DNA of 64,000 nt from a virus, in the IMG/VR virus record IMGVR_UViG_3300017829_000024, positions 1,157 through 65,156 of that record; one strand, given 5' to 3'. Every line of letters starts with the position of its first letter. Within the stretch, counting starts at the first letter, position 1. A program made the position numbers and the translations under genes. This document shows, piece after piece, positions 1 through 19,800 of the stretch. The notes beneath the pieces are model-generated. The model was given only the letters and a program-made list of their open reading frames with translations. It was not told the DNA's origin and did no database searches.

Positions 1-837
1 GTAACCGGGAAAACGGATACGCACACGCGCGATCGCATTCTTCATGACCTCAAGACAGGCCGTTTGCGCGCCGTGACCAACGCAGACATCTTGACCGTCG
101 GATTCGACTGCCCACGAATCGATTTCATTGGCCTTCTTCGCCCCACGCTTTCGCCGGGACTCTTCGTTCAGATGGTGGGGCGCGGTCTTCGGCTTCATCC
201 AGACAAGGCCGACACCCTCATTCTCGACTACGGAGGCAACATTCAAAGACACGGAACGCTCGATGCGATCCGAATGCGTGAGCCCGGCGACAAGAAGGGA
301 ACTGCGCCCACGAAGGTCTGCCCCGTCTGTACGGCTGAGATCCCTCTGGCGGCCACAGAGTGCCCCGAGTGCCATGCCGATATCCGCAGCGAAGAGAGGC
401 CCAAGCCGAAACACGACGCAGAGGCCTCTGAGCAGGAGATCATTGGCACAGGCGCGCCCATAGAGGCGGTGAATGAAACTGTCACCGAGGTCCAGTATGC
501 CTATCATCGCGGCCGAAACGGAAAACCCCCGACCATGAAGGTCACCTATCGGCTCCAAGGCAAGCCTGCGCCCGTGTCCGAATGGGTCTGCATCGAGCAT
601 GATGGGTGGGCTCGGACGAGGGCCGAAAGCTGGTGGTTGCGTCGCTCCCTCGATAAGAAACACGCACCCGAAACGATTGAAGAAGCCCTCGCCCGAGCAC
701 CGGGCCTTCTTCAGCCACGGATCTTGGCCGTCGTCTACCCGCCTGATAGCTATCCAAAGATACGATGGGCAAAACGATTCATCGACCCGATCGGTCGACC
801 CGGGATGGAGAATGTGCGTCGGCTCAAACCAGTGTAG
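1..837 (+). CDS. SF2 (DEAD/DEAH, RadD/YejH-like) helicase, C-terminal part; 5' end outside window
   Basis: Frame open from base 1; motif V TNADILTVGFDCP, motif VI FVQMVGRGLR, LILDYGGNIQRHG, Zn ribbon CPVC..CPEC. Confidence 0.88.
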   Translation, partial: VTGKTDTHTRDRILHDLKTGRLRAVTNADILTVGFDCPRIDFIGLLRPTLSPGLFVQMVGRGLRLHPDKADTLILDYGGNIQRHGTLDAIRMREPGDKKGTAPTKVCPVCTAEIPLAATECPECHADIRSEERPKPKHDAEASEQEIIGTGAPIEAVNETVTEVQYAYHRGRNGKPPTMKVTYRLQGKPAPVSEWVCIEHDGWARTRAESWWLRRSLDKKHAPETIEEALARAPGLLQPRILAVVYPPDSYPKIRWAKRFIDPIGRPGMENVRRLKPV

Positions 838-1096
838 AGCACTATTATCATTGGCTCAAAGACGGCACGCGACTAGAACTTCTAGAGTGGGTTGGCGCAC
901 CGCTGGTCAGCTTTGAAGAGCTTGAAGAGATGGGCTACACGGTCATCATTGATAAGCGACTCGAGGTAACTCCTGGATTTGAACAGATGTAACGGGCCTC
1001 GGCATGCGGAAGCGGCGCGTTAAATGGCACAAGTTTACAGCATGCAATGGTATAGGCTTGACAGCGAAGCGAGGCGCCGCATACAGCGGTTTGCGG

Positions 1097-1768
1097 ATGA
1101 CAAAATCACAGCTTGCGGCGCCTCGTCGCATGAAGATCTCAACCGAATGCGCATTCACAATCAAGGGGCAAATAGACTGCCCCTTGCTGATGCACGCGCC
1201 GACAACCGTTGACCCGCTGAACCCATATTCAGTGAAGATGCGTAAGGTCTCTACAAAGCGCCAGAAAACCGAAGATGATTACGAGGCTATCTCTCGGATT
1301 GAGTTTCTTGCAGGGCTCTATTTCGAGGACGGAACCGGTCCGTACATTCCAAGTCGGGTCATTTCCGCGTGTTTGATTGATGGCGCTAAGAAGTTCAGGC
1401 TCGGTCGCGCCGCCCGTGCCGGCATTACGCCTAAATCGCCCCGGTTCTTCTTCAAGAAGTGGCGCGGACCCAAGACCGCCGAGGCGCTCTTTGAGTCTCG
1501 GCTCAAAGACGGAACACAGCGGTATGTTGATAAGCGATGCGTTCGCGTTACAACCAGCCGGATCATGAGGACGCGCCCCCGGTTTGACGCCTGGGAGATC
1601 GACGTAAGCCTCATCATTGACGCGACCGCATTTGATCCCGAGCGAATAGAAGACATCGTGCATGCCGCGGGCACGCTCGTCGGCATCTGCGATAATCGAC
1701 CCGAATGCGGACGATTTGAGCTCGATGGCGACATTGTCTTGACAGAAAACACACTCAAGATGGCCTAA
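1097..1768 (+). CDS. Small Cas7/RAMP-like RNA-binding protein (Vipr-like effector); start at 1097 or 1130
   Basis: FTIKGQ..PLLMH, YIPSRVISACL, R.RPRFDAW and C-terminal G-rich loop AGTLVGICDNRPECGRF typical of RAMP folds; lies upstream of a GGY-NN array. Confidence 0.72.
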   Translation: MTKSQLAAPRRMKISTECAFTIKGQIDCPLLMHAPTTVDPLNPYSVKMRKVSTKRQKTEDDYEAISRIEFLAGLYFEDGTGPYIPSRVISACLIDGAKKFRLGRAARAGITPKSPRFFFKKWRGPKTAEALFESRLKDGTQRYVDKRCVRVTTSRIMRTRPRFDAWEIDVSLIIDATAFDPERIEDIVHAAGTLVGICDNRPECGRFELDGDIVLTENTLKMA

Positions 1769-1781
1769 AAGGAGAACATCA

Positions 1782-2267
1782 ATGAATGCAGCAGAGAGGC
1801 GTCAACACGCACTTTCCCCGAAGGACCGAGCCATTGAGCGCGCTCATGTTCTCGCCGAGAAGATGATGGACTCACCCGGCGTAAGCTGGCCGGTTGACAC
1901 TGTCTGTCGCGAGCTTCAGATCCCCAAATGCAGAACGCATGACAGATACATACTGAGCGGATTCGAGGCGCTCTATCTGCATTCGGAGCTCGAACGTCAC
2001 GGTCATTACCTTGTGCCGGCTCGATCGGGAAACCGTGTGCAGTCCTACCATCTGGCAGATGATCGCGAAAAAGAACTGGTTGTCGCCAAGAAGTACGAGC
2101 AAAAGTCCATAACCTGCCTTGAAAAGCGCGTTCGCATCCTTGGTCAGGTTGTCAACTCGGACTACAACTCCGAGGAGAGAAAAAGATTAGAGGCCACGCG
2201 CCGCATCGCTTCCGCCGAGCTTGATGCGATAAAGCGCGCAAGAAAGCGCCACAAAGACGGCATCTGA
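1782..2267 (+). CDS. Accessory protein between RAMP-like gene and repeat array (function unknown)
   Basis: 161 aa ORF with RBS AAGGAG; stop codon 4 nt before the first pentamer. Confidence 0.75.
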   Translation: MNAAERRQHALSPKDRAIERAHVLAEKMMDSPGVSWPVDTVCRELQIPKCRTHDRYILSGFEALYLHSELERHGHYLVPARSGNRVQSYHLADDREKELVVAKKYEQKSITCLEKRVRILGQVVNSDYNSEERKRLEATRRIASAELDAIKRARKRHKDGI

Positions 2268-2271
2268 TCTT

Positions 2272-2850
2272 GGTTTGGCAGGGCATGGCCGGGCAAAGCC
2301 CGATCAGGCGCGGCCGGGTCAGTTGTGGCAAGGCTTGGCAGGGCTGGGCATGGCTAGGCATGGCAGGGCAGGGATTTGATCTGAATGTTTTACGGGGCCA
2401 GGCTCGGCAAGGCCCGGTGTGGCGTGGCAGGGCACGGTTCGGCACGACTTGGCACGGCAAGGCAAGGATTTGAATTCTAGATTTTTTCGGGGCATGGCAT
2501 GGCCAGGCTGGGCAAGGCAAGGATTTGAGTTTCAGAATTTAAACGCGGCCCGGCTCGGTGGGGTTCGGTGGGGCAAGGCACGGCGTGGCATGGCGAGGCA
2601 TGGATTTGAATTCTAAATTTAGATGCGGCTAGGCATGGCCTGGCTGGGCGCGGTCGGGCTCGGCCCGGCACGGTGCGGCATGGCCTGGCTGGGCTGGGCA
2701 AGGCAAGGATTTGAGTTCTAGGTTTTCACCAAGGCCGGGTTAGGCATGGCAGGAATTTGAGTTCTCAGTTTACGCGAGGCATGGCCGGGCGAGGCTCGGC
2801 GGGGCGCGGTATGGTGAGGCCAGGCGAGGCGCGACAAGGCAAGGGTTTGA
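2272..2850 (+). ncRNA. GGY-NN pentamer array, 7 units (20,14,6,11,16,4,13 pentamers), putative guide-RNA array
   Basis: Strict 5-nt periodicity; units at 2272-2371, 2396-2465, 2491-2520, 2547-2601, 2627-2706, 2733-2752, 2778-2842; each ends in GGATTTGA (variants GAATTTGA, GGGTTTGA); units separated by 24-26 nt AT-rich linkers. Confidence 0.9.
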
Positions 2851-2856
2851 GTGGAT

Positions 2857-3252
2857 ATGACACGCATTGAAACGATTGATCCGTCTCGGTTTGACGGCCG
2901 CCTTCGCCATCTTCCGCAGCCCAATGAAGACCTTCCCGTCCGTGCGTTTTGGGCAGACTATCTTGGTCAACCCAAAGGCCCCAAATGGAGGGGGCGCTTC
3001 GTTGACTGCGGAGACTATCGAGTCGAGCTTGTGCTTGATGATCAACAGTACCCAGACACGGTCAATCGATGTCCTCCGGGATGGTGGGATCGCCGCACCG
3101 GTCGGCCCTGCGGTGTGCCGGCGGATGTGGCATCGTTTCGGTTCGAGCTCATTCCAGCCGGCGAAACGCACTGGAGACAAGATGGCCAAAAGAAGCTTGA
3201 AGCGACGACGCATGACGAAGAAGAAGGCGCGTCAAAGCCTCCGAGACGGTGA
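2857..3252 (+). CDS. Hypothetical protein
   Basis: ORF starts right after the array; no recognised motif. Confidence 0.55.
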   Translation: MTRIETIDPSRFDGRLRHLPQPNEDLPVRAFWADYLGQPKGPKWRGRFVDCGDYRVELVLDDQQYPDTVNRCPPGWWDRRTGRPCGVPADVASFRFELIPAGETHWRQDGQKKLEATTHDEEEGASKPPRR

Positions 3253-3373
3253 CCCGCTAACCGACGAGCACCTCAAGACGCTCGAGATGCCCCGCGAGGC
3301 CTGGTGGGCCTATCGAGACATGCCTAAGCGATCGAAGCATGCCTTTGCTTGCGCGCTCGCCCAGCTCTTCTGA
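3182..3373 (+). CDS. Small basic hypothetical protein
   Basis: RBS GGAGA before ATG 3182; MAKRSLKRRR... Confidence 0.5.
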   Translation: MAKRSLKRRRMTKKKARQSLRDGDPLTDEHLKTLEMPREAWWAYRDMPKRSKHAFACALAQLF

Positions 3374-3393
3374 TGCGGGGTAGAAGAGACTTC

Positions 3394-3984
3394 ATGAAGC
3401 ATCTTCTGCTGTTCGCTCTTCTGCTTCTTTCCCCTCTCGCCTGCGGCTCCGATGAAGTCGATGCGGTCCTTGATGGGGGACTGCTCTCGCCTGATGCTCA
3501 AGTCGATGCCGGGCCGCTGCCCGAGCCCGACGCGGGTCCTGATGCCGGTGTGTCCGTCGAGTGCGCGTTCGCCACGTACTTTCGTGCCGATGCACCCCTC
3601 CCCTATGGGCCTGTGACGTACACATCGACGTCCGTGTCTGTGCTTTGCGATCTGCTTGTTTTCGGAGCGCCTTCGCCTCAAACCCTGATCGGCGGCGATG
3701 TCAGTCACTTCTTCGGTGCGCCTCGCGGCGAGGGGTTCTGGGTCGAGAGCCTGAATGCGCCCGATATTGTCGGCGGGCCCGAGACATCGACCGTCACCGC
3801 GCTCGTCCCCGCAGGCTTCAGCCCGGGCGAGTGGTCCATGCTCGAGCCCGATTGCTACGCGGCCGAGCTCGACGTGTGGATCGTGACCGCCTCCATCACT
3901 CCAGACCAGGAGGTCTCTCGAGGGACCGCCCGGGTATGGACGCGGCCTGACCGGCATGCCGCAGGCGATTGTCCGGGCCTCTGA
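3394..3984 (+). CDS. Lipoprotein with myxobacterial-style DAG repeats
   Basis: Signal peptide MKHLLLFALLLLSPLAC (lipobox LAC); DAGPLPEPDAGPDAG linker. Confidence 0.7.
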   Translation: MKHLLLFALLLLSPLACGSDEVDAVLDGGLLSPDAQVDAGPLPEPDAGPDAGVSVECAFATYFRADAPLPYGPVTYTSTSVSVLCDLLVFGAPSPQTLIGGDVSHFFGAPRGEGFWVESLNAPDIVGGPETSTVTALVPAGFSPGEWSMLEPDCYAAELDVWIVTASITPDQEVSRGTARVWTRPDRHAAGDCPGL

Positions 3985-3987
3985 CCC

Positions 3988-4383
3988 GTGTGGTTTTGGG
4001 CCTCGACGGAGCGGATGACGGTCGGGTTCGAGGTTGTCCGTGAGCGCGTTGTGACCGCGCCGCCCATCATCCGTCGCTTTGTAGGGCAACCCTGGGCCAA
4101 CCTGACCGACTGGCTCGAGAAGCAGCCCGGGTACCTTCTCGAGCGCACGGACCGCTTGATCGTCCCCCCGCCGCTCGGCCGCCCCTGCGACCAGTGTGGG
4201 TGCCCTCAGCCGCCCCACAGGTGCTTCTGCAGCCTTTGCCAGGGCTGGACCCATGACCGGCGCTGGCGCGCCGTCCTGGCCGAGGAAGCCAACGAGATCC
4301 CGCATAAGGACGGAAAGAACGTCCAAACGCTCTGGCCCGAGATCGCAGCCTCCTACGTCCATCCGTTACGTCGCCGTACGTAG
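3988..4383 (+). CDS. Hypothetical protein with Cys cluster
   Basis: CDQCGC..HRCFCSLC; start uncertain. Confidence 0.45.
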   Translation: MWFWASTERMTVGFEVVRERVVTAPPIIRRFVGQPWANLTDWLEKQPGYLLERTDRLIVPPPLGRPCDQCGCPQPPHRCFCSLCQGWTHDRRWRAVLAEEANEIPHKDGKNVQTLWPEIAASYVHPLRRRT

Positions 4384-4438
4384 CCCTCGCCCGCGGCGAG
4401 AGGAGGATAAGGGACGATCTGTGCCTACATTTTGCCTG

Positions 4439-4716
4439 TGGACCGGCTGGACCGGGGTGGACCAGAGGTCGCGGTCCACACTTTTCTCAGTGCTTTCATA
4501 TACATACCTTCTTGGACCGTTGGACCAAGTAATGTCTATATATAAGAGGGGGTGCGCGCTCCCTAAAAAAAAGAGGGGGGGAGGAGTCAACACATAGTGG
4601 TGAGCGGTTTTTTGCTGGTCCACATCAGGTTTCAAGCTAAACGCCTGAAATAATTGAAGATTTCCCGGACCACGGGTCGCGGTCCAGGCGCGGTCCACCC
4701 CGGTCCAGCCGGTCCA
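4439..4716. promoter_or_regulatory. Putative replication origin with GGACC/GGTCC iterons
   Basis: Perfect 25-bp inverted repeat 4439-4463 / 4692-4716; about 12 GGWCC motifs in both orientations; AT-rich core; directly downstream of primase-helicase. Confidence 0.7.
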
Positions 4717-4755
4717 GGCCAGGTTTTTGAAGGGTATGCCCGAAGAAAAGTAGGG

Positions 4756-7398
4756 CTAACGAAGGGTCAGCGTAGACCAGTTTTCGTCCATGGACCACCG
4801 CTCTGGGTGCTCAAAGTTCGGGGGAAGGTAAATCCTGGGTCGGGCCCCATTGGAGAGCCGGGGCCGATGAAAGGTCCATCCGAGCTCGGCCAGCGTGTTT
4901 TCGATCTCAAGCCGGTCTCGCTTCGTCCATTTGCCCTTTTCGAGGCCGACCGCGGTCAGGCAGGCGGACATGGTGACCGGGATGGGGCGCTCTTTGAGCG
5001 CGGACTCGAAGAGCTCGAACCAGGGATGGCGCGATCGGCGGCTGTCCCACACCTCTTCGATCTCCTGTTCGAACACCTCATCATCCTTGCTGGGCCACCA
5101 CTTCGCGCCGTTCTGAAGCTCATACACCGCCTCTGCGAAGATTTGGTCACGATGCGCCTCGACCCAAGGCACATCAATTTCCCTTTCGCCGAAAGGGACG
5201 CACCACATCCGTCTCGATCCGGTCGGGTCTTGAAGATAGCGCCGATCGTTGGTCGAGCCCCCAAAGACAACCCGTCTCGGGACGATGACCTCTTTGACGG
5301 CATAGGGGGGTCGAAAGTGGTCGGTCGCTTCGCTCAAAAAGGCCTTCGTGGCTTCAGTGCCTGCTCGGCCCGACTGAAGGAGTTCCCCGATCTCGATAAT
5401 GACTTTTCCGCAGAGGTGAATGAGGGAGTCCTTGCTTTGAAAGTCCGGGCTTCGACCCGAATACCACCGGGGTTCTTTGGCCATCGCCTTAAAGAACTGC
5501 GACTTTCCAATGCCCTGATCGCCCTCGAGCACAAGCATGTGATCAACCTGAGACCCGGGGCAAAAGGCTCTCGCCACGATGCTTATGGGCCACCACCGCC
5601 CCACCTGAATGAGGTACTCGCTTCGCGGAAGCCCCGTCAGATGAGGTAGCCAAGTATCAAGGATGGTCGGTGCTTCGGGGTCGTGCTCAAGGCTTTCAAG
5701 GTATTGCTTAAAAGGATCAAAAGGTCTCCTCATGGCCTCCGAGACAATCAGCTCGTAGAAGGTTCTTGTGGTGAAGTTTGTGCGAAGCATTTTGGTGCAC
5801 AAACGCAAAAGTCGCGTAACGCCTTGAGCCTGAAGTATCCCGGCGGGTATGCCGGCCACGCGTTGCTCAAGAACAACGATGTCTTGGGCGCGTTCGTCGA
5901 AGCCCAAAAGACCCTTCATCATGGGCTCTTCTTCGAGGAAGATGGCAGCATTATGCAAAAGCTGTTTGATCGTGCCCTTGTCGTTATACAGGTACTCCCC
6001 ATGAAGATGTCGCTGATTAGAAGATGACGATTGCTCCTCGGCTTTTTCGTCCTCGACGGCTTTTCGGGTATGTTGAGCGATGGCGCTTCGAATCTCTTTG
6101 AGGGGCAACTTGAAGCGGTTTTTGACCGCTCGCATATAGCTTTCGCGCTCCGTAAAGCGATCCCCGCGAAGCGCTTCACCCATCATCTTGAATATGGGGG
6201 AAAGCTTCTTCGTCAGCTTTGCGCCCTTAAGGTCGCGGTCTATGTCTTCAATGAGCCATTCGACATATGAGACCGCTTCACCCACAAAGCGCTCATCGAA
6301 GGACGCTTTGCTGTGCGCTTGAAGATAGGCCGCCGCGTCGGTCTTTTCGTCGGCCTGATGGGTCAGGATGCAAACCGATGTTTCACGCTCCGCACGAAAC
6401 AGCGCTTCGCCCACGATTCGTGCGGATTTGACTCCCGATCCGTTTGGCTCGATGTCCGGAACCAAGACAAGGCTGGTGCCTTCGCTCTTCTTGACGAGCG
6501 CCTTGACGCGCCCGGTGTTCCCGCCGAGCCCGCTGAGGGCGACCGCCGGCCAGCCGGCCTGTTCGATCGCCATCGCATCGAACTGGCCTTCGACCACGCC
6601 CAGGATGACCCCCGCACGACGCGCCCGGGCGAAGGCGTCCTCGTTGAAGAGGACCTGAGCATCGATCGCCGGAGAGATGCGCCGGTCGGTCTGAGACGTA
6701 CCGAGCATCCGGTATTTCGGCTCAACATCGGCCTTCATCGTTCGACCGGTCATGAACATGCACCGATCCCCTCGCCAGTAAGGGATCGTAATGCGGTGCA
6801 TCATGGTCTCGTATGTATGGCCCTTTTGGCTCTTTGAAAGCAGTCCAGCGCGCCAAGCCCATCGCTCTTCGATCCCTCGCTCCTTGAGCATGTCGAAGAG
6901 CCCACCTCCGATCCCGAGCTTGAAGCGATCGATTGTTTCATCCGTGAAGCCTCGACCATGCAGATACGACCGGCCTTCCTCGGTGAGGTTCTCGTGGTAG
7001 AAGAGGGCCGCAGCCGTCAGGGTTTCGATCGTGTTCTTCGCGTCCCAGTGTGCATCGGCCAGCCGCTTCTTCTCTTGGGGGCTGCGCGCAGGCCGACCAC
7101 CGGTGAGCTGAAACAGCATGTCGATGGCCTCACGCATCGTCATGCCTTGCTCTTTGGTCACGAAGTCGAGGAATGTTCCCCCTTCGCCGGCCATGTCGTG
7201 GTAAATGCCATAGCCATCCCCACGATCAGGAATGTATGTGAATGAGGGGTGCGACTCGCCCCGATGAACAGCCAAACCCGTCCAGTTGCCGCTGGCGGGC
7301 TTGTGATTGAACTGAACGAGACCTTCTCGTTCGAGCCACTCTCCAAAATTCAGTTTCCGTAGGGCTTCGAGGATCTCAGGATCGCGTTGTTTGCCCAT
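4756..7398 (-). CDS. DNA primase (Toprim) fused to VapE-like P-loop helicase
   Basis: DnaG-like N-terminus, Toprim VVEGQFDAM, Walker A LVLEGDQGIGKS, VFGGSTNDRRYLQDPTGSRR. Confidence 0.92.
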   Translation of the reverse strand: MGKQRDPEILEALRKLNFGEWLEREGLVQFNHKPASGNWTGLAVHRGESHPSFTYIPDRGDGYGIYHDMAGEGGTFLDFVTKEQGMTMREAIDMLFQLTGGRPARSPQEKKRLADAHWDAKNTIETLTAAALFYHENLTEEGRSYLHGRGFTDETIDRFKLGIGGGLFDMLKERGIEERWAWRAGLLSKSQKGHTYETMMHRITIPYWRGDRCMFMTGRTMKADVEPKYRMLGTSQTDRRISPAIDAQVLFNEDAFARARRAGVILGVVEGQFDAMAIEQAGWPAVALSGLGGNTGRVKALVKKSEGTSLVLVPDIEPNGSGVKSARIVGEALFRAERETSVCILTHQADEKTDAAAYLQAHSKASFDERFVGEAVSYVEWLIEDIDRDLKGAKLTKKLSPIFKMMGEALRGDRFTERESYMRAVKNRFKLPLKEIRSAIAQHTRKAVEDEKAEEQSSSSNQRHLHGEYLYNDKGTIKQLLHNAAIFLEEEPMMKGLLGFDERAQDIVVLEQRVAGIPAGILQAQGVTRLLRLCTKMLRTNFTTRTFYELIVSEAMRRPFDPFKQYLESLEHDPEAPTILDTWLPHLTGLPRSEYLIQVGRWWPISIVARAFCPGSQVDHMLVLEGDQGIGKSQFFKAMAKEPRWYSGRSPDFQSKDSLIHLCGKVIIEIGELLQSGRAGTEATKAFLSEATDHFRPPYAVKEVIVPRRVVFGGSTNDRRYLQDPTGSRRMWCVPFGEREIDVPWVEAHRDQIFAEAVYELQNGAKWWPSKDDEVFEQEIEEVWDSRRSRHPWFELFESALKERPIPVTMSACLTAVGLEKGKWTKRDRLEIENTLAELGWTFHRPRLSNGARPRIYLPPNFEHPERWSMDENWSTLTLR

Positions 7399-7400
7399 AT

Positions 7401-7649
7401 TTATGACGCTTGTCCGTTCTTAATGGCCTGCCGGACGCTTCGCACAGTCTTCATGGCGTCGATGAGAACTTGCTCAAAGGTCATGTGTCGAGGAGGGACA
7501 TAGCGCTCGAGGCCATTTGTCACGAGCAGTCGTACGGCATCCGATCGGGACTCGAGCTGAAGCTCTTCCTGAAAAGCTTCGATCGCCTGCAGCATCTCAG
7601 GCGAGAACCGGCATGATACGGAGATGAAGTCTCCGGGGCGATTTGACAT
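7401..7649 (-). CDS. Ribbon-helix-helix (CopG-like) regulator
   Basis: ISVSCRFSPEMLQAIEAF...SRSDAVRLLV pattern. Confidence 0.7.
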   Translation of the reverse strand: MSNRPGDFISVSCRFSPEMLQAIEAFQEELQLESRSDAVRLLVTNGLERYVPPRHMTFEQVLIDAMKTVRSVRQAIKNGQAS

Positions 7650-7670
7650 GCGTGTGCATAATGCACACGC
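7650..7670. promoter_or_regulatory. Palindromic operator candidate
   Basis: GCGTGTGCAT-A-ATGCACACGC perfect 10-bp inverted repeat abutting the RHH start codon. Confidence 0.6.
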
Positions 7671-7711
7671 GGATTGGACACAAGACCAAAAGCGTGTTTA
7701 CGGTCCGGACC

Positions 7712-8188
7712 ATGCCGTACGTCGTTCGCCGACCCGAGGGCCTACCGCCCGGACCTGTTGTCTATGTGCCCAACGTGGGAGACAACCGCCTCGATCTTGA
7801 GGACCCGTTTCGTTGCGAGATCCATCCCATCTCATATGAAGAGATCGGCGGCTTGGTGGCGATGACACCGCCCGACCTGAGTGACGATGCCGTCCTTGAG
7901 GTCGACGGAAAAAAGCAGCTCAGCGAACAGGGTCAGGTGGCCACAGGAAATCACCTTTTTGAGCTCCATATCCTGAAGTCTGTCAAAGCTGTTTGGTCTG
8001 GTTCGTTCGAAGAAGCCAAGACCGGCACGATGCTTTCACCTACGGATGGAGAGTCATTGCTTCATGCGCTCAAGCGGACATTTCCTCGTGAGGCCATGGA
8101 TGTGATGACTGATCTTGGGCGCGCCTGCACGAACATGCACCATCTTCAGCAGGGGGATTACGATTTTTTAAAATCGTCTCAGCCATAG
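7712..8188 (+). CDS. Tail assembly chaperone (gpG-like)
   Basis: Upstream of tape measure; ends just after slippery heptamer. Confidence 0.7.
   Translation: MPYVVRRPEGLPPGPVVYVPNVGDNRLDLEDPFRCEIHPISYEEIGGLVAMTPPDLSDDAVLEVDGKKQLSEQGQVATGNHLFELHILKSVKAVWSGSFEEAKTGTMLSPTDGESLLHALKRTFPREAMDVMTDLGRACTNMHHLQQGDYDFLKSSQP
8164..8170 (+). other. -1 programmed ribosomal frameshift site T TTT TTA
   Basis: X XXY YYZ heptamer in correct phase; -1 frame is stop-free to 8589. Confidence 0.85.
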
Positions 8189-8589
8189 CGTTCGACGTAT
8201 GGCCTGAGGCACGAAGATGGAGCTGCACCAAGTGTCGAACATCGGACATCGAGGAAGTGAACGTCAGGGGCGACGCCTGGCGCGCGAAGCGTGGATGCGA
8301 CAAGCCCGCCGATACTCCGTGCCACATATTACCCGATGGGACAAAAATCTTCCGCTGTCCGAACACTATCCACTCATCGTATTGGCAAGCTTTGATCGCT
8401 TGGCAGGACTACAAAGCATTGACCTTGAGGCCTTTCGGCGTCTCCGATATCAACAAGGCTCCAAACTGGATCGTCCAGTGCTTCCGGACCTTCGAATTGC
8501 ATCGAGCCGAGGCGAAGATGTTTCACATGCAAAAGATGGAACAGGACATGAAGACAAAGTCCCGTAAGGCACAGGCAGGCCGGCGATGA
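8167..8589 (+). CDS. Frameshifted extension of tail chaperone (gpGT-like)
   Basis: -1 frame reads KIVSAIAFDVWPEARRWSCTKC... and joins ORF 8257-8589; overlaps tape-measure start (ATGA). Confidence 0.75.
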   Translation, partial: FKIVSAIAFDVWPEARRWSCTKCRTSDIEEVNVRGDAWRAKRGCDKPADTPCHILPDGTKIFRCPNTIHSSYWQALIAWQDYKALTLRPFGVSDINKAPNWIVQCFRTFELHRAEAKMFHMQKMEQDMKTKSRKAQAGRR

Positions 8590-10520
8590 CAGCAGGAACC
8601 GAAACGATTGGCCTCGATATCGAGTCAAAGGACCGAGGCGCACAGGACAATCTTCAGCGCACCCGACAAGGTGTGCGCGATCTAGGGCGCGCCGTCGACA
8701 AGGCCAAACAGAGCACAACAGATTTCGCGAAGAGCTCGGCCGGGCTTTTGGATGTCATCACGAACACGAAGCGCGTTTTCTCTGGCAATCTTGAGAGTGT
8801 TGCCGGTTTGGCAAGAGGCTTTGGTGCGCTTAGCACATCAGCAGGCGCAGCGGGCGTTGCGGTGGGCGCTGTGGGCGCAGCCGCGGCAGCGGGCGCCGTC
8901 ATCATTGGCGGACTGGCCGTCGCCACAGCAGCCTCTGGGGTCGCCCTTTTTCAGTTTGCTAACAAGTCAAAGCGCCGCGTTCGAGAGCTCGACGACTCTT
9001 TTAAGAGCATGAACGAGGCCATAAACAGGCTTCGGTTTTCCATTCTCCGAGACCTCGCGCCCACCCTGATTCGACTTGCCGATATCGTGACAGAGGTGAC
9101 CAAAGAGTTCACAAAATGGTTTGATTCGTTGGAGTTCCCTCCAGACTTCGTTAACACATTAATCAATCTATTTTCAGAAATCGTGCCTTTGGGCATCAGA
9201 GTGATTGGTGATCTGACCGCCCAGTTCATCGGCTTCTTCAGCCCACTGATCAACATTGCCGCCGGCATATCTGTAGCGGCGGGAGGCCTGGCCGGACTGT
9301 TTGAGCTCGCGGGAAGCGAGGGCGCAAAGAACTTGCGCAAGCTTTTCGTTGACATCGGGATGGGCCTATCAAGCATCGCGACCAACTCGAACCAGGTTCG
9401 TGAGGCAGCCAACAATGCGGCCGGCGCCATTGAGCGCGCCATTCAAAAGGCGCGCGAGTTCAACATGACGTCACCGGAGAACCTGGGCATAGTCCCCGCC
9501 GGTCTTGGTCCGGTGCGCGATCTCGATCCGCAGCGGCTTGCGCACGAACGAGCTGTTGCGGAAGCAAGGATTGAAAAAGAGAAGCAAGAGGCGCTTGAAA
9601 AACTCAGAAAAGAAGCCGCCAAGAAGGCCGCGGAGCTCGTTAAAAACAACCTACAGACCATTGAAGACATCAGAACGGGTGAGATCGCCAAAGCCAAAGA
9701 AAGATTTGAGGCTTTACAGGAGATATCGGAACAAGCCGCCCAGGCCCGTGCTGATCTAGAAGAGATGAGGGTCGAAAAGCTAGAGGAGCTGGTCGATCGT
9801 GTTGTTAAAGCCAGATTCGGCGCTACGATGATGATACTCAACAATGAGCTTGAGGCCATTGAAAAGCTCGACAAGGAATATGATCGCCAACAAAAAGAAT
9901 CTGAGCGCCGCGCCAAAGAAATGGCAGAGCAACATGCTGCGGCATTCTTGCAGATTGCGGAGGCGGGAGGACGAGCATTCGCAGCGCTGATCAAGGGCGG
10001 AGACTCTGCACAGGATGGCGTAAAGGCCTTTGTGAACGCCGTGATTGGCGCAATGCGTCAAGCGATCTCGGCCTATGCTGCAGCCGCGGCGGCCGGCGCA
10101 GCCGTCTCGCAATCACCGATCCCGATCGCTGGCCCTGTGTTGGCTGCAGCGGCGGCTACGGCGATGCTGGGGCTTGTTCAGGGTCTTCTGTCCGAGTTTC
10201 ACGAGGGTGGGATCGTGGGCCCGGGCGGCCGACGCATTCCGCTTCCGGCTTCGGCGCGGGCGTCAGGTCTTGCGCCCGACGAGGCGATCGCGCGCGTTCA
10301 GACGGGCGAGGTCATCCTTCCTCGCGGCGCCATGGCGGACATGGCCGGCGGTGGATCGCTCAATGTGAACCTCACGGCTTCGGTTTTGACCTCGGCCGAT
10401 GTGAGCCGCGGTCAGTTCGAGCGCATCATGGAAGGCGATTGGATCCCCGGCATTCGACGTGCAGTTCGACGCGGGTTCGAGCTTCAGAATCCGCGTGAGA
10501 TCGGAAGACATAGACGATGA
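8586..10520 (+). CDS. Tail tape measure protein
   Basis: Ala/Gly-rich helical, coiled-coil segment, C-terminal FHEGGIVG...EAIARVQTGEVILP motif. Confidence 0.85.
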   Translation: MTAGTETIGLDIESKDRGAQDNLQRTRQGVRDLGRAVDKAKQSTTDFAKSSAGLLDVITNTKRVFSGNLESVAGLARGFGALSTSAGAAGVAVGAVGAAAAAGAVIIGGLAVATAASGVALFQFANKSKRRVRELDDSFKSMNEAINRLRFSILRDLAPTLIRLADIVTEVTKEFTKWFDSLEFPPDFVNTLINLFSEIVPLGIRVIGDLTAQFIGFFSPLINIAAGISVAAGGLAGLFELAGSEGAKNLRKLFVDIGMGLSSIATNSNQVREAANNAAGAIERAIQKAREFNMTSPENLGIVPAGLGPVRDLDPQRLAHERAVAEARIEKEKQEALEKLRKEAAKKAAELVKNNLQTIEDIRTGEIAKAKERFEALQEISEQAAQARADLEEMRVEKLEELVDRVVKARFGATMMILNNELEAIEKLDKEYDRQQKESERRAKEMAEQHAAAFLQIAEAGGRAFAALIKGGDSAQDGVKAFVNAVIGAMRQAISAYAAAAAAGAAVSQSPIPIAGPVLAAAAATAMLGLVQGLLSEFHEGGIVGPGGRRIPLPASARASGLAPDEAIARVQTGEVILPRGAMADMAGGGSLNVNLTASVLTSADVSRGQFERIMEGDWIPGIRRAVRRGFELQNPREIGRHRR

Positions 10521-13687: not shown

Positions 13688-13801
13688 CCATGAACAGGAA
13701 CACGGATTTCTCAGCGGGCGGGCTGAGTGCGCAGTCCGAGGCCGGGTTGTGGGACCCTTGCCACCCAAGGCAGGCCTCTTCCCGCGCAGGGAGAGCCTAC
13801 C

Positions 13802-16800
13802 ATGCGCGAGCTTGGCGACCGATTGCGAAAACTCCTGGCCCTGCAGGGCGTAACGCCCGTGATGCGGCTCCTGGTGCAGGTGCCGCAGGAGACGGTGCTT
13901 CGTGTGACGGACGTCGCCGCGACGGGCCCAACAGTCTCCATCGTGGATCGGGAGGGGATGATCCAAACAGCGGACGCCGCCGCGGGCGCGTCCGACGTTC
14001 TTGTACGCACGCCGGCCGACCGGGCAAAGGCAATCGCCAAGGCCATCCAGGACGCCGAGGTAGAGGGCCTTTGGGCGAATTCGGATGCGGATCGGTCCGA
14101 CGTGGGCTTTGTCCGCATCGTCGTTGCGCCCGAGCTCAACCAGCTTCCGCAGATCTTGGCGGGCGGGACTGAGGTGGTCGATACGCCCGCGACGCCAGGC
14201 GCGGTCCGCTTCGTCGAGCTCAATTCGAGCGATGTACCGATGAGCGCGATTGGGGGCGCGGTCGGCGAAGTCGATCAGCCTTCTGGCTTTGGGACGATCG
14301 TCGAGGCCGAATCCCTCAAGACCGCGATCGATGTTCGCTCTCGAGAGCCGATCGGCGCCGCATTCCTAATCCGCGTAGCCGGCGGCGAGGGCATCCGGCG
14401 TCTGTTTCTCGTTCACCCGCCGCAATCGCTAAGACTGAACCTCTTTCTTGGCGCATATCACGCGAGAGATGAAGTACGCGTAGCCGCGGCCAACCAGTTC
14501 ATCGGCCCGGCCGTTCCTGAGTTTGAATCGTTTGGTCAATGGTATGTCAGTGAAGAGCCTGTCGGGCATCCAGATGGAACCGTTACGCTGACGATCATTG
14601 ACGAAATATCGCGACTCGCAAACCTCAAGCTTCAGCCTCTTCAGTTTCGATACCTTCACCCGTATCAGGCAATTGAAGAGCATCTCGAAACGATCGGCCT
14701 GCGTTCAGGCGCAGGCTATGCGCCAGGCACATTCAACCCCACCAGAAACCCGACGAAGGGTCATTTCATCGTCGGCAACTACAATCTAGATCAGAACTAC
14801 ATTGTCGAATCACCTCGAGACGCACAAGAGCGATCGATTTCGTTCACAAAGACCCTTCAGGATCTCCTTGTCACCACCGGCGATGCGCTCCGCATTAATG
14901 ACGAGGGCAACCTCGAGCTCATTCTTTATGACCCTACGACGGAGCCGGTACGTCATTTTAGAGCAGGTCCCGATACTGGTTTTGACGCAACCGTGCCAGA
15001 GCTCGTCAGTCCGCACATGTACAACCGGATTGTTTGGGATGTGCCCATCAGCCTGCTTACGCCGGCCAATCGGGACGGTGTCGACCAGAAGTACCCCGAG
15101 CGCATATCTCAGAAGTTCGAAAGCGAAGCCTCTAGAATATGGCTGCGTAAGATTGAAGATCTAAGCATCGAGAATCCCTATATTGGTCGCGCCACGAGCG
15201 GCGGTCGGCCCGTCACAGGCTCAGTGTGGAACACCTTCGTCCCGCTGAACTACGGCCAGGACTCTATGGTCTTTGAGCCCTATACGGACTCGGCAGGTGG
15301 CTTGATTGCGGGATCGGATCGGGTCCGAGTAAAGCATCCTCACGTAAGCAACTGGTGCGGCCTTCGCGTTGTTATGCCAGATTACAATCTGGAAGAGCCT
15401 GCGAACGACGAAAGATACGACCGCTTATACGATCCGGACTTTAAGAACCCGTTTACCGGTTCCTATCCCGCCTTTGAGTACGATGAGCTTGTCTATGAGG
15501 ACGATGTTGCAAACCTAAATCCCGAAGAAGGGCGAATCGCGTTCATCCGATTTGATCCCCCTGGCGGCCGAAAGCGCGTTCTCGATCTCCCTGTGGCAGA
15601 GATGAGCGGCCTGTTTCAGTTTGAAGGCCGAGAGATTATTCCGGACGAACCAGAGTTCTTGCCGGAGGTCATTGCGATCGACGAGTGGATCGTTCTTCTG
15701 GGTGACGAGCCGGGTAATGTCCATCAGATCCGCACGCACGCAAGGGCGGTGCTGCTGAACCGATTCGACGCGTCACTGGCCGAGCGCGAGAACCTGCCCG
15801 AGTTTATTCGGGTCGATCCATACATCCGTGAAGCGGTTCTTGAGGACCTGCAGTTTCATATTGCAGGGGATTTCATGCAGCTCGATCCCGAAGAGTTCCC
15901 TCAATACCGGCGGATCATTTCAACACGCGGCGACGGCCGGGGCATCAACAACACTCTCGTCCCTCACGCTTGGGCGCTTCGTCCGGCCCCCAATCCTCGT
16001 GCGCCCAAAGATGTCGCGACGATGTCGGACATTACGATTGCGACGTATCGATCCGCGGAGCTCCTCAACCGATTCGAATTCGGTGCGCCCGAGATTCGGT
16101 TCGACGTCAGAATCTCAAACCTGGACCTTCAGCTCGCTGATGTCATCACGATTGATGACCCGAGCTATGTGGGCTATCGCCGATCAGGCCTCGACCGGAC
16201 GGTTACGTTTGAAATCACAGGCCTAGAATACCACTGGCTCGCCGATCAGCCGCGCATCACAATCACGGCGGTCCAGCTTGCTGACAACGGCAACACGTCG
16301 CCCTATGCGCTCAAGCCCACCCGGCTTGTGCCTGAGAACATGGTCCCGCGTAATCGCGGCGTTGAATATCTTCGTCGTTCAGAGGACTTCTCTCCGGATG
16401 CCGAGATCGGCTTTTCGGCCAGCACGCTCACCGCGGAATGGAAGCGCACGAACTCCGCACAATCGAGTCTTGAGGCTGAATTCCGGGTAATGAGGTGGCG
16501 GCCCGTCAAGAACTACACGCACGTCCTGGGTCGATTTGTGGCGACCGGAATCGTCTATAACGCGGTCACGCAAAACTATCGAACATTTCGTGTCGAGACC
16601 GACTACACCTTCGATTACCAGGGCGTTCTTTCGCTCCGATCCACCGGTCAAGCATCCAAACTCCGCGAGAGCGGCGCCCTGCCCGAGGACATGGAGATCC
16701 GCCTCGATGCAGTAAACAATGCGCTTGAAGTCTGGGCCATTGGTACGGAGGGCGAGCAAAAGGAAGCCCAGGTCAATGCTGAGCTTCACGCTATCGAACA

Positions 16801-19800
16801 GAGCGCACTGATTGAGCCGCCTGATCAGGTATCTTCGATATTTGAGTGTGACACATTTGCCGAATGTGAGTTTATCGGCCTCGAGTTCATTGAGGGCGAG
16901 TTTGAGTGTGATGCTTTTTCAGAGTGTGAGTTCATTGGGGCGGTGGATGACGTTGTTCAGGACGTCGTCTCGACCTTTGATTGCGAGGCTCGGACAGAAT
17001 GCGAGTTTGAAGGCGTAGTCCAGGCGCCGCCAGAATGCCGGGTGGCCGCCGACGGCTTTCAGGATGGCGATGTCATTGTCCGGGGCGACACCCAGACTTT
17101 GAGCTTCGAGGCGCGCGATGACGTCGGCGTTGTGCGGGCTGAGCTCTATATCAACCGAAACCTGGTCCAGACTTGGCCGCCGGCCACGCCTCCAGCGCTG
17201 CCTTCTGATCCCGACACTTGGGTGCGGTTCGATTATCAGTGGGACACCAGCAATTACACCGGTGATGGAGCAGTCGTCACATTTGTTGCTTTTGATGCCG
17301 GCGATCGGGAATGCGCCGAAACGATCAAGGCCGATTTTGAGGATGCCCCGGCCGATTTCGTCTGCACCGTAACCGGCTTGACCGATGGCGATGTAGTGTC
17401 TGGGACTGAGCGGCTCGTCATCAGCGTGACAAACACTCCAGGGCTTGCTGAGGCCAGGCTGACCATCGACAACATTCTTGTCCGGAAATGGCCGCCTCCG
17501 CCCGATCAGGTCATTCAGGGTGTGGCGCAGCCTGACTTGCCCACCACCCGATCACAGAGCGAGCGGACCTTTACGTTCACTTATGACTGGAACACCACCG
17601 CCTCGCCGAACGAATCGGTCGTGATTCGTTTCATGGCCACGGATCTCGACGGTCGTTCGTGCGACCTCATTGCCAAGGCGGTCATTGAAAACCCGACGGC
17701 CGCTCCTGGCCGGGTCACATGCGCGCTTCAGGCCCAGACCGCAGCCGGTGGAGGGCAGCCCGCGATTTCGGATGGCTCGACGGTCACCGGCAACGTCTGG
17801 TTCCGAATCACCGCCAGCGCACCCACAGGAGGGCCTCTCCTTCGCCAGGCCGCGCTCACCATTGACGGGGACGACTTCTGGTTCGACAGCTTCCCAGGGC
17901 CGCAGAACGCCCTCTCCATTGTCGTGGGCCCATGGGACTCGGCGCCCAAGGCGGGCTCGAGCGTCATCGTGCGGCTCGAGGTGGTCGATGTGAACGGTGG
18001 GGTTTGCGTCAACTTCCTGAAGCTCGAGGTGGGCGGGACGGCGCCTCCGCCGGTTGAGGATGTGCCCTTCAACTGCGGTCTCTTCCTCTTCGCGAACAAC
18101 ATGGAGGTGAGCGACGGGGACGAGGTCACTGGGGAAATCGAGATTCGCTATAACGCCGAGTACGCCGCGGGGATCGCCGGCTTTGAGCTTTCGATTAATG
18201 GGTCGGTGCAGGACTCGGGCACCTTCGGGCCAACGCCGCCCATGACGCGTCTGCCGGCCACGCCGGCCGCTCCGGCGAACCTGGGGTTTGAGACGTTCAC
18301 TTGGAACACCTCGGCCCAAGGGGGCTCGGATGGCGTCTTGATTCGCCTGGATGTGGTCGGCCTCGATGGTCGGACCTGCACCGAGTTTTTCAAGGTCGAC
18401 GTGGGAGGCGTTGCCCCGCCGCCCATGGACGTTGCCCCGCCAGAATGCCGACTCGATGCGCGGATTGATGCTTCGAACCCCATCAATGACGGCGATACGG
18501 TCTCCGGAACGATTCAGCTCCTTGTGCGCGGTCGGGATCCGGCCGGGATCGCCGGCTACACCATCACGGCCGACGGCCGGACCATTGGCGGGCGAGACTT
18601 TCCGCCCGAGGCCATGACCACGCAATTCGGGTTCGACAGCGAAGGCAACCCGGATCCGACGGTCTTCAACTTTGATACGACGATCCTCGAGAACGGTCAG
18701 GATTTGATCTTCAAGCTTGAAGTGGTTGGGGTCAGCGGGCTGACGTGCCTGAGCTTTTTGAAGCTCACCGTAAACAACCCTGTCATTCCAGATGCGGACG
18801 TCCCGGTCTGCCGCATCAACTCTCCGCAGGATGGGGAAACGATTTCCGGAACGGAAACGCTCGTGGCAACAGCGAGCGACCCCGCGACCATCACGCGCAT
18901 AAGCTGGCAGATCGACAGCCAGCCGCCCATGGTGACCAACCTGGACATGCCTGAAGCGAGTCCAGATCCGTTCGAGCTCGAGCTCGACACAACGAGCCTC
19001 AGCAACGAAGGCCACATCATTCGGTTTGAGGCGACGAACGCCAATGGTGTCATGTGCCGCGACACGATCAAAGTCGAGGTGCAAAACGATCTGCCGACAT
19101 GTCAACTCACTCTGCCTGTCGCGGGTCAGTCATTTGTTGGGCCCTACGATATCGTCTTTCGTGTTCAGGCGCCTCGGGGTGTTCAGACAACACAGCTTTT
19201 CGTGGATGGTGTACCAATCGATTCGCGCACGTTTGACGACATGCCCACTGATACTGGATTTTTAACTTTTGGTGCATCGGTTGCGGATCTTTCAGTAGGC
19301 AACCACACTTTGAGACTATTGGCGGTCGACGCCAATAATGAAACGTGTGAGGAATCAGTTCAGTTTGTTCGGTCGGATGCAATACCTCCCACTGTTGATT
19401 TTTCTTTTCCAGGAGTAAATGTCACGGAATTCACTACGGCTGCGGCGGTCTCCTTTCGCGCCCGAATACGCACATCGGGCGGCCGTTTTGCTCGCCGAAT
19501 CCTGATGCTAAAAAACGGTGTTCAGGTAGGACAGGTTGGCGAAAGCTCTGCCAGCACTTCGCTGTTAGAAACCCCAGTATTCACGTTTCAGCCAGGCAAC
19601 GAACCGAATGGTCCGGTTGTTTTTACGGCAGTTGGAACCGATTCTGATGGCGTAACGAATCGATTTGAGCGCCGTTTTACGATCAATATCGGAGCAAATA
19701 GATTGCTTCGGATCACTCCATCAACCCCGCCTGCAAACCGGCTTGTCACCTACACCTCAAGCATCAGTCTTTTGGCTTCGATCCAACCCACGGGCTACAG

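What the first reader, a model, noticed from the sequence alone, without database searches (positions are those of the whole stretch)
2547..2601. Unit 4 decodes to a Walker A P-loop
NN string CC TC GG TC GG AA AC GT AT GA AT reads P-S-G-S-G-[KN]-T-V-[IM], a canonical GxxGxGKT-type loop resembling SF2 motif I (PTGSGKTVI). None of the P-loops in this window (GDQGIGKS, CHGIGKS, GRAQSGKTT) match. With units 2 and 7, this suggests guides are selected against ultraconserved replication NTPase motifs.
Basis: partly seen in the sequence, partly recalled or inferred. Interest (0 to 1): 0.82.

Follow-up and report, generated by a model that had tools for sequence, protein, structure and literature searches.

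The report
Phage VIPR guide spelling a P-loop
One unit of this phage's pentamer-repeat array is a guide RNA of the recently described CRISPR-like VIPR system, and its variable bases spell the ATP-binding P-loop of some NTPase gene; this is a new example of a known system, and its actual target gene could not be identified.

Summary
Window 2547-2601 holds eleven GGY-NN pentamers whose NN string is exactly as reported, and under the published VIPR 1-nt-skip rule it reads P-S-G-S-G-[K/N]-T-V-[I/M]-[D/E]-[I/M].

The surrounding locus is a VIPR system. The upstream 254-aa protein matches SUSP1 Vipr (E 7e-31; PDB 36pp, E 1e-22). Seven GGY-NN units follow, each closed by GGATTTGA.

The P-loop reading is unlikely to be chance. 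A GxGK[ST] decode appears in only 0.2-0.5% of randomised arrays. The first nine NN have at least 120 exact matches in prokaryote genomes, against about 17 expected, and 115 of 120 lie in frame in long ORFs.

The assignment to SF2 helicase motif I or to replication NTPases is not supported:
- 82 of the 122 exact matches across both collections are VirB4/TrbE conjugation ATPases; the rest are ABC, KaiC, AAA+, RecA and a few ResIII helicases.
- Eighty relatives of the phage's own helicase score no better than shuffled guides.
- No full-length (11/11) match exists in the viral, genome or metagenome collections.
- No locus is hit by two different guides.

The phage does not target itself (best 15/22, its own helicase motif I). 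The host is unknown.

Other notes of this scan on the same window cover units 2 and 7, and I reproduced both. Verdict: a new member of a known kind.

The parts
1004..1768 (+). vipr gene (RAMP-family Vipr protein). The true start may be Met43 at 1130, which would give about 212 aa like its relatives.
   Evidence: BLASTP against SUSP1 Vipr: 29% identity over 182 aa, E 7e-31. PDB 36pp 'SUSP1 Vipr protein': E 1.1e-22. phrog_4652: E 5e-40. Relatives are 187-219 aa long. N-terminal sequence.
1782..2267 (+). Candidate vipr-accessory gene (vap) by position; 161 aa, no recognisable family.
   Evidence: It lies between vipr and the array, as vap1 does in SUSP1. No Pfam, PHROG or PDB match. No similarity to SUSP1 vap1.
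2272..2850 (+). vrRNA array: seven units of GGY-NN pentamers, each closed by GGATTTGA and an AT-rich linker of about 17 nt.
2547..2591 (+). Unit 4, pentamers 1-9: the likely guide proper. The NN string spells P S G S G [KN] T V [IM].
2592..2601 (+). Unit 4, pentamers 10-11 (GGCGA GGCAT): probably part of the constant handle rather than guide.
   Evidence: The last NN of all 7 units begins with A (P about 3e-4). Four units end in GGCAA GGCAA. The trailing AA AA is not matched in the 64 DnaB targets of unit 7. Relatives end in GGYAT before a GGAT tail.
2602..2626 (+). Unit 4 tail and linker (GGATTTGAATTCTAAATTTAGATGC).
   Evidence: Tail alignment. A local hairpin is predicted in units 2 and 4 only. 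There is no consensus structure across units.
2396..2465 (+). Unit 2: its antisense reading is FLVNVDVLTTGFDC, helicase motif V.
   Evidence: Three exact 24-base matches in viral contigs, in frame, in homologs of the phage's own helicase.
2778..2842 (+). Unit 7: its sense reading is IRESGAIEQDA, the DnaB motif.
   Evidence: 64 exact 22-base matches in viral contigs, all in frame in DnaB-like ORFs.
1..837 (+). C-terminal part of the phage's own SF2 helicase (570 aa in full, genome 281-1993). Its motif V is at window 70-110. Its motif I lies 740 bases upstream of the window.

Best explanation
Unit 4 is one guide RNA (vrRNA) of a phage-encoded VIPR system.

By analogy with the SUSP1 and P. fulva systems, Vipr protomers would bind one GGY per repeat. 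They would form a filament and present the NN dinucleotides, which pair with double-stranded DNA while skipping every third base. The bound complex would block transcription of the target.

The first nine NN of unit 4 specify codon positions 1-2 of the Walker A loop P-S-G-S-G-K-T-V-(I/M). The predicted target is therefore the P-loop-coding stretch of an NTPase gene in another genetic element, read in the sense orientation, with the guide pairing to the template strand.

Pentamers 10-11 are probably part of the constant handle. The phage's own P-loops differ enough to escape.

Shown here: the repeat anatomy, the Vipr homology, the decode, the enrichment of natural in-frame P-loop matches, and the absence of a self-target.
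Inferred: transcription and processing of the array, RNP formation, DNA binding and silencing, and the role of pentamers 10-11.
Not resolved: which NTPase family, and which competitor, is the target.
For: - Vipr homology: E 7e-31 to SUSP1 Vipr; PDB 36pp at E 1e-22.
- The locus order vipr, small ORF, array is the same as in SUSP1, and SUSP1 has GGY-NN runs in its flanks.
- Four distant Vipr homologs all sit beside GGY-NN arrays.
- Array statistics and the decode.
- Chance of a GxGK[ST] decode: 0.2-0.5%.
- The 9-NN pattern has at least 120 exact genome matches against about 17 expected, and 115 of 120 are in frame in ORFs of at least 200 aa.
- Pfam confirms P-loop NTPases.
- Mismatch-tolerant scans beat the reversed-pattern control: 20 against 1 and 42 against 6.
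- Sister units 2 and 7 have exact in-frame matches in helicase motifs, so guides of this array do derive from conserved coding motifs.
- No self-match reaches 80%, as reported for published VIPR systems.
Against: - No perfect 11-pentamer match in the viral, genome or metagenome collections, even with position 2 relaxed.
- In viral contigs the 9-NN pattern has only 2 hits, and the 3'-proximal 9-NN pattern only 1, atypical hit. By my own estimate of that collection's size, this is about chance level.
- In SUSP1, R-loop formation starts at the tail-proximal end. This argues that pentamers 10-11 might matter after all.
- No locus is hit by two guides, unlike the convergence seen for SUSP1.
- No expression data are available.
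- No promoter or terminator was recognised in the array.
- The tail has no conserved predicted structure, unlike the SUSP1 pseudoknot.
Confidence: 0.75

Rival explanations
1. One reading: the target is motif I (PTGSGKT-type) of an SF2 replication helicase in a competing phage. That could be the same kind of helicase that unit 2 hits at motif V.
For: - The best in-frame self-match of unit 4 is the phage's own helicase motif I (15/22, or 14/18 on nine pentamers).
- Unit 2's best self-match is motif V of the same gene.
- Five exact 9-NN genome hits are ResIII/DEAD helicases reading APSGSGKTVIGL.
- Three of 80 family members reach at least 15/18.
Against: - Across 80 relatives of that helicase family, motif I scores 11-16/22, within the range of shuffled guides.
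- The three helicases matched perfectly by unit 2 score at most 14/22 for unit 4.
- The family's motif I context, GK(S/T)(H/I)V(I/Q)A(D/E), differs from GKTVI(D/E)(I/M).
- Only 4% of the exact matches are SF2 helicases.
- The self-match of 14/18 is no higher than shuffled guides reach on the same genome.
Confidence: 0.2
2. The target is the Walker A of VirB4/TrbE-type conjugation ATPases, so the phage would silence the type IV secretion machinery of plasmids or integrative conjugative elements in its host.
For: - 82 of 122 exact 9-NN matches are VirB4/TrbE (PF03135) P-loops reading GPSGSGKTVI(V/L/I/Q)N. They come from Bartonella, Xanthobacter, sphingomonads and other Alphaproteobacteria, several from plasmid records, and score 19-20/22.
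- These genes belong to mobile elements, which is the class of target reported for VIPR.
Against: - The host is unknown. Head-protein relatives are equally distant in the Alphaproteobacteria and Myxococcota samples.
- The dominance of VirB4 may only reflect how many such genes the genome collection holds.
- Positions 10-11 mismatch by two bases.
- No other guide hits those loci.
- Conjugation genes have not been reported as VIPR targets in the papers read.
Confidence: 0.15
3. The Walker A reading is a coincidence. Unit 4 targets an unrelated sequence, or is a decayed or decoy guide with no P-loop target.
For: - No full-length match anywhere.
- Viral hits are at about chance level.
- Units 3 and 6 of the same array are too short to be specific.
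- Satellite-encoded decoy vrRNAs exist.
Against: - All nine consecutive decoded residues fit real P-loops exactly, and natural matches are seven-fold above expectation and in frame.
- Two sister units have unambiguous coding-motif targets.
- The antisense reading gives no recognisable motif.
Confidence: 0.08

Closest known systems
VIPR type II system of Escherichia phage SUSP1 (Vipr, vap1, vrRNAs; bioRxiv 10.64898/2026.04.26.720920 and 10.64898/2026.04.26.720927; PDB 36pp)
   Same: - A homologous Vipr protein (29% identity, E 7e-31).
- The gene order vipr, small accessory ORF, downstream array.
- vrRNAs built of GGY-NN pentamers followed by a constant tail.
- Guides that match coding DNA with the skipped base on the wobble position, on either strand.
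- No self-target at 80% or above.
   Different: - GGC rather than GGT repeats.
- A short tail of about 25 nt (GGATTTGARTTCTA...) with no predicted pseudoknot, against a tail of about 40 nt in SUSP1.
- Seven back-to-back units of 4-20 pentamers, and no clear upstream vrRNA.
- The accessory protein is unrelated to vap1.
- The guides do not converge on one element. Instead they spell near-universal NTPase motifs.
SUSP1 vrRNA4 targeting the catalytic core of a satellite recombinase (bioRxiv 10.64898/2026.10.15.759431)
   Same: The guide reads codon positions 1-2 of catalytically essential residues. Synonymous changes therefore cannot give escape, and non-synonymous changes damage the enzyme.
   Different: There the target is one gene family of one satellite lineage, with experimental proof. 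Here the decoded motif (the Walker A loop) occurs in many unrelated NTPase families, and no target element has been identified.
Class 1 CRISPR crRNA-Cas7 backbones
   Same: RAMP protomers polymerise along a guide RNA, and their thumb domains interrupt pairing periodically.
   Different: CRISPR skips one base in six and uses contiguous spacers acquired between repeats. This array has no CRISPR repeats, no cas genes, and a 2-in-5 guide code.

Membership tests
VIPR system | A Vipr protein (minimal RAMP) encoded at the locus | tested here: met
   Window 1004-1768 against SUSP1 Vipr: E 7e-31 over 182 aa, covering residues 13-188 of 195. PDB 36pp 'SUSP1 Vipr protein': E 1.1e-22. The fold itself was not confirmed, because the single-sequence model failed with pLDDT 28.
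VIPR system | vrRNA genes made of tandem GGY-NN pentamers with constant GGY and variable NN (9-16 repeats in the described clades) | tested here: met
   Seven units of 20, 14, 6, 11, 16, 4 and 13 pentamers, nearly all GGC or GGT, with NN using all 16 dinucleotides. Unit 4 has 11 pentamers.
VIPR system | A constant 3' tail after each repeat tract, structured (a pseudoknot in the SUSP1 clade) | tested here: inconclusive
   A constant GGATTTGA plus an AT-rich stretch follows every unit. No consensus secondary structure was found. Hairpins are predicted only in units 2 and 4. Relatives L301 and L303 also have short GGAT..TAA tails.
VIPR system | An adjacent vipr-accessory (vap) gene | tested here: inconclusive
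   A 161-aa ORF occupies the vap position, but it shows no similarity to SUSP1 vap1 or to any family.
VIPR system | Guides match natural DNA by the 1-nt-skip rule, gapless, mostly with the skip on the wobble position | tested here: met
   Unit 2: 3 exact 24-base hits. Unit 7: 64 exact 22-base hits. Unit 4, first nine NN: 2 viral and at least 120 genome hits. Almost all are in frame. For unit 4 the full 11-NN guide has no exact match.
VIPR system | No self-targeting at 80% NN match or above | tested here: met
   Best self-match over all 11 pentamers is 15/22 (68%), and over the first nine 14/18 (78%). Units 1, 2, 5 and 7 reach at most 64%. The very short units 3 and 6 have chance matches.
VIPR system | vrRNAs are expressed, bind Vipr, and direct DNA binding and silencing | not testable with these tools
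   No sequencing run was listed. This needs wet-lab work.
Walker A (P-loop) coding sequence as the target of unit 4 | The decoded string fits GxxxxGK[ST], and its natural matches are Walker A loops of NTPases | tested here: met
   The decode xPSGSGKT contains GxGKT. In natural hits the residue before P is G or A. Pfam assigns the hits to VirB4, ABC_tran, KaiC, AAA_5, ResIII/DEAD, T2SSE, Sigma54_activat and RecA.
SF2 helicase motif I as the target of unit 4 | The best matches fall in motif I of SF2 helicases, above what shuffled guides give | tested here: not met
   Five of 122 exact hits are SF2 helicases. Eighty relatives of the phage's own helicase score 11-16/22, against 14-17 for the maxima of shuffled guides.

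The most novel reading that the evidence does not exclude
This phage's VIPR array carries 'motif-level' guides rather than gene-level guides. Each guide spells codon positions 1-2 of a near-universal NTPase motif: Walker A, helicase motif V, or the DnaB signature. One guide could then silence a whole protein family across unrelated competitors. In this reading, unit 4 may be aimed at the VirB4/TrbE ATPases of conjugative elements, which would be RNA-guided phage-versus-plasmid interference.
Probability: 0.15. Interest if true: 0.6.

Novelty: new member of a known kind. Interest (0 to 1): 0.4.

Why it matters
VIPR systems were described only in 2026, and few natural guide-target pairs are known.

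A guide that spells a Walker A loop would be an extreme case of the published principle that VIPR reads amino-acid-determining codon positions of essential residues. The target could not escape without losing ATP binding, and one guide could reach many gene families.

It also raises a specificity problem that can be tested. At the published 80% threshold, a nine-pentamer P-loop guide has 4-14 near-cognate sites in each of five bacterial genomes examined. Measuring the real mismatch tolerance, and whether the two tail-proximal pentamers pair, would be informative for the system as a whole.

Tried and rejected
- I first considered origin iterons, a partition or packaging site, or a TRAP-like target for a ring-shaped RNA-binding protein. 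I dropped these once the Vipr homology and the VIPR papers explained the pentamers.
- Single-sequence AlphaFold model of Vipr: unusable, pLDDT 28.
- Megablast of window 1-9000 against phages and tblastn of window 50432-52108: no match.
- A search for close Vipr relatives in viral contigs found none.
- Full-length unit 4 pattern: no hit in the viral, genome or metagenome collections, nor with position 2 relaxed.
- The whole records of the three contigs hit by unit 2 hold no unit 4 site within 3 mismatches.
- Host identification failed. The head protein is at most 32-37% identical in 401 Myxococcota and 401 Alphaproteobacteria genomes. 'Relatives' are not defined for a virus record. No sequencing run was listed.
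- Rfam, promoter and terminator scans of the array found nothing useful.
- The tails have no consensus structure.
- The guides of four related loci showed no obvious NTPase motif on visual reading of the decoded strings.
- No locus is shared between the targets of different guides.
- The short ORFs that overlap the array (2270-2473, 2419-2616) are by-products of the repeat and were not pursued.

Full report
**What is there**

Between the stop of a 161-aa ORF (2267) and the next gene (about 2857) lies a 580-bp tract made almost entirely of 5-nt units of the form GGY-NN. It is split into seven units by a constant GGATTTGA motif and an AT-rich linker. Five consecutive GGCNN occur 38 times here against 0.01 expected. 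All are on the + strand, and there are none elsewhere in the window.

Unit 4 (2547-2601) has 11 pentamers.

**What kind of thing it is**

VIPR is a real system described in 2026. A minimal RAMP protein (Vipr) polymerises on vrRNAs made of alternating GGY and NN. The NN pair with double-stranded DNA while every third base is skipped. The skipped base mostly falls on the wobble position, either strand can be targeted, no PAM is needed, and natural targets are competing phages, satellites and prophages. Structures show one protomer per repeat, with unwinding that starts next to the 3' tail.

The 254-aa ORF at 1004-1768 aligns with SUSP1 Vipr over almost the full length of the latter (29% identity, E 7e-31). 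It also matches PDB 36pp, 'SUSP1 Vipr protein', at E 1e-22. The SUSP1 gene that it hits is flanked by GGY-NN runs and followed by a small ORF and a 530-bp gap, as in the paper.

The closest homologs among 5.8 billion proteins are at most 41% identical. All four of their loci that I fetched carry GGY-NN arrays, two of them with short GGAT..TAA tails like this one.

The 161-aa ORF in the vap position has no detectable relatives. The genome is a 65.5-kb virus record with head, portal, terminase, RecT-like, primase-helicase and SF2 helicase genes.

**Is the Walker A reading more than chance?**

Read by the 1-nt-skip rule in the sense direction, unit 4 gives P S G S G [KN] T V [IM] [DE] [IM]. The antisense reading gives nothing recognisable.

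A GxGK[ST] core appears anywhere in the array, in either direction, in 0.2-0.5% of arrays randomised in three ways. That figure must be discounted for the many motifs a reader might recognise. Two further results still support the reading.

First, the sister units behave the same way. Unit 2 (12 NN) has 3 exact 24-base matches in viral contigs. All are in frame, antisense, at FLVNVDVLTTGFDC in helicases 35-43% identical to the phage's own. Unit 7 (11 NN) has 64 exact 22-base matches, all in frame at IRESGAIEQDAD in DnaB-like ORFs.

A uniform model expects about 17. Of the 120, 115 lie in frame inside ORFs of at least 200 aa.

Mismatch-tolerant scans also beat the built-in reversed-pattern control: 20 sites against 1 in 401 Myxococcota genomes, and 42 against 6 in five genomes.

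**Which gene is the target?**

Pfam places the exact matches in many unrelated P-loop families. Of 122 exact matches (120 from genomes, 2 from viral contigs):
- 82 are VirB4/TrbE type IV secretion ATPases, from Bartonella, Xanthobacter, sphingomonads and other Alphaproteobacteria, and some sit on plasmid records.
- 12 are ABC-type and 11 are KaiC-like.
- 5 are ResIII/DEAD helicases.
- Single cases are AAA_5, T2SSE, a sigma-54 activator and RecA.

The best score over all eleven pentamers is 21/22, for an AAA_5 protein. VirB4, KaiC and ResIII sites reach 19-20/22.

No perfect 11-pentamer match exists in the viral, genome or metagenome collections, even when position 2 is relaxed to allow the canonical PTGSGKT. 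In viral contigs the nine-NN pattern has two hits: a RecA-like fragment and a short ORF. The tail-proximal nine-NN pattern has one hit, at an atypical site in a 34%-GC contig. By my own rough estimate of that collection's size, these numbers are about what chance gives.

The helicases that unit 2 matches perfectly score at most 14/22 for unit 4. Eighty further members of the phage's own helicase family score 11-16/22 at motif I, no better than shuffled guides. No fetched locus is matched at 80% or above by two different guides.

The host could not be determined.

**How long is the guide?**

Four of the seven units end in GGCAA GGCAA. The last NN of all seven begins with A (P about 3e-4 given the inner NN composition). 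The trailing AA AA of unit 7 is not matched in its 64 DnaB targets. Relatives end in GGYAT just before the tail. I therefore think pentamers 10-11 of unit 4 belong to the handle and that the guide proper is the nine pentamers spelling PSGSGKTV(I/M).

The counter-argument is that in SUSP1 the tail-proximal protomers engage DNA first. This point needs an experiment.

**Self-avoidance and specificity**

The best in-frame site in the phage's own genome is its helicase motif I (PTGSGKSIVQA). It scores 15/22, or 14/18 on nine pentamers. This is below the published 80% cut-off and no higher than shuffled guides reach on this genome. The phage's other P-loops score 9-12/22.

A nine-pentamer P-loop guide would meet 4-14 sites at 15/18 or better in each of five bacterial genomes examined, mostly other Walker A loops. 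Those five genomes were chosen because each holds an exact hit, so only the counts at 2-3 mismatches are unbiased.

**RNA features**

No sigma-70-like promoter, intrinsic terminator or Rfam family was found in the array. The tails share sequence but no covarying structure. The units are probably cut from one transcript that reads through from vipr and vap, but this is inference only. No sequencing run holding this phage was listed.

**Comparison and verdict**

This is a new, divergent member of the VIPR family, with GGC repeats, short tails and an unrelated accessory gene.

The reading 'Walker A' is supported. The narrower reading 'SF2 motif I / replication NTPase' is not shown and is only one of several possibilities. 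Other notes of this scan on the same window cover units 2 and 7, and I reproduced both results independently.

Noticed in passing
window 974-981: A lone GGATTTGA, the tail motif of the array, lies about 25 bp upstream of the vipr start. It is preceded by one GGTAA pentamer but no repeat tract. It could be a remnant of an upstream vrRNA, since SUSP1 has one upstream, or it could be chance (about 2 copies of an 8-mer are expected in 64 kb).
   Followed up: no
window 1004-1130: The vipr ORF is about 60 residues longer at its N-terminus than all relatives (187-219 aa). Met43 at 1130 (MKISTECAF...) would give a protein of the usual size. No clear ribosome-binding site precedes either start.
   Followed up: partly
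window 2491-2520 and 2733-2752: Units 3 and 6 have only 6 and 4 pentamers. They are too short to be specific, and both have perfect or near-perfect chance matches in the phage's own genome. They may be decayed or incomplete guides.
   Followed up: partly
window 2272-2371 and 2627-2706: Units 1 (20 pentamers, three of them degenerate) and 5 (16 pentamers) decode to no motif I could recognise.
   Followed up: no
L001, L003 against L002: The three viral helicases that unit 2 matches perfectly come from contigs of very different base composition: the target sites in L001 and L003 are AT-rich and that in L002 is GC-rich. Exact NN-level matches therefore arise across unrelated phages through protein-motif conservation alone.
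   Followed up: partly
window 13727-21520: A very long ORF of 2597 aa on the + strand. It was not annotated here.
   Followed up: no
L302:5611-6166: A related VIPR locus sits next to a BrnT/BrnA toxin-antitoxin pair and an AbrB-like gene.
   Followed up: no
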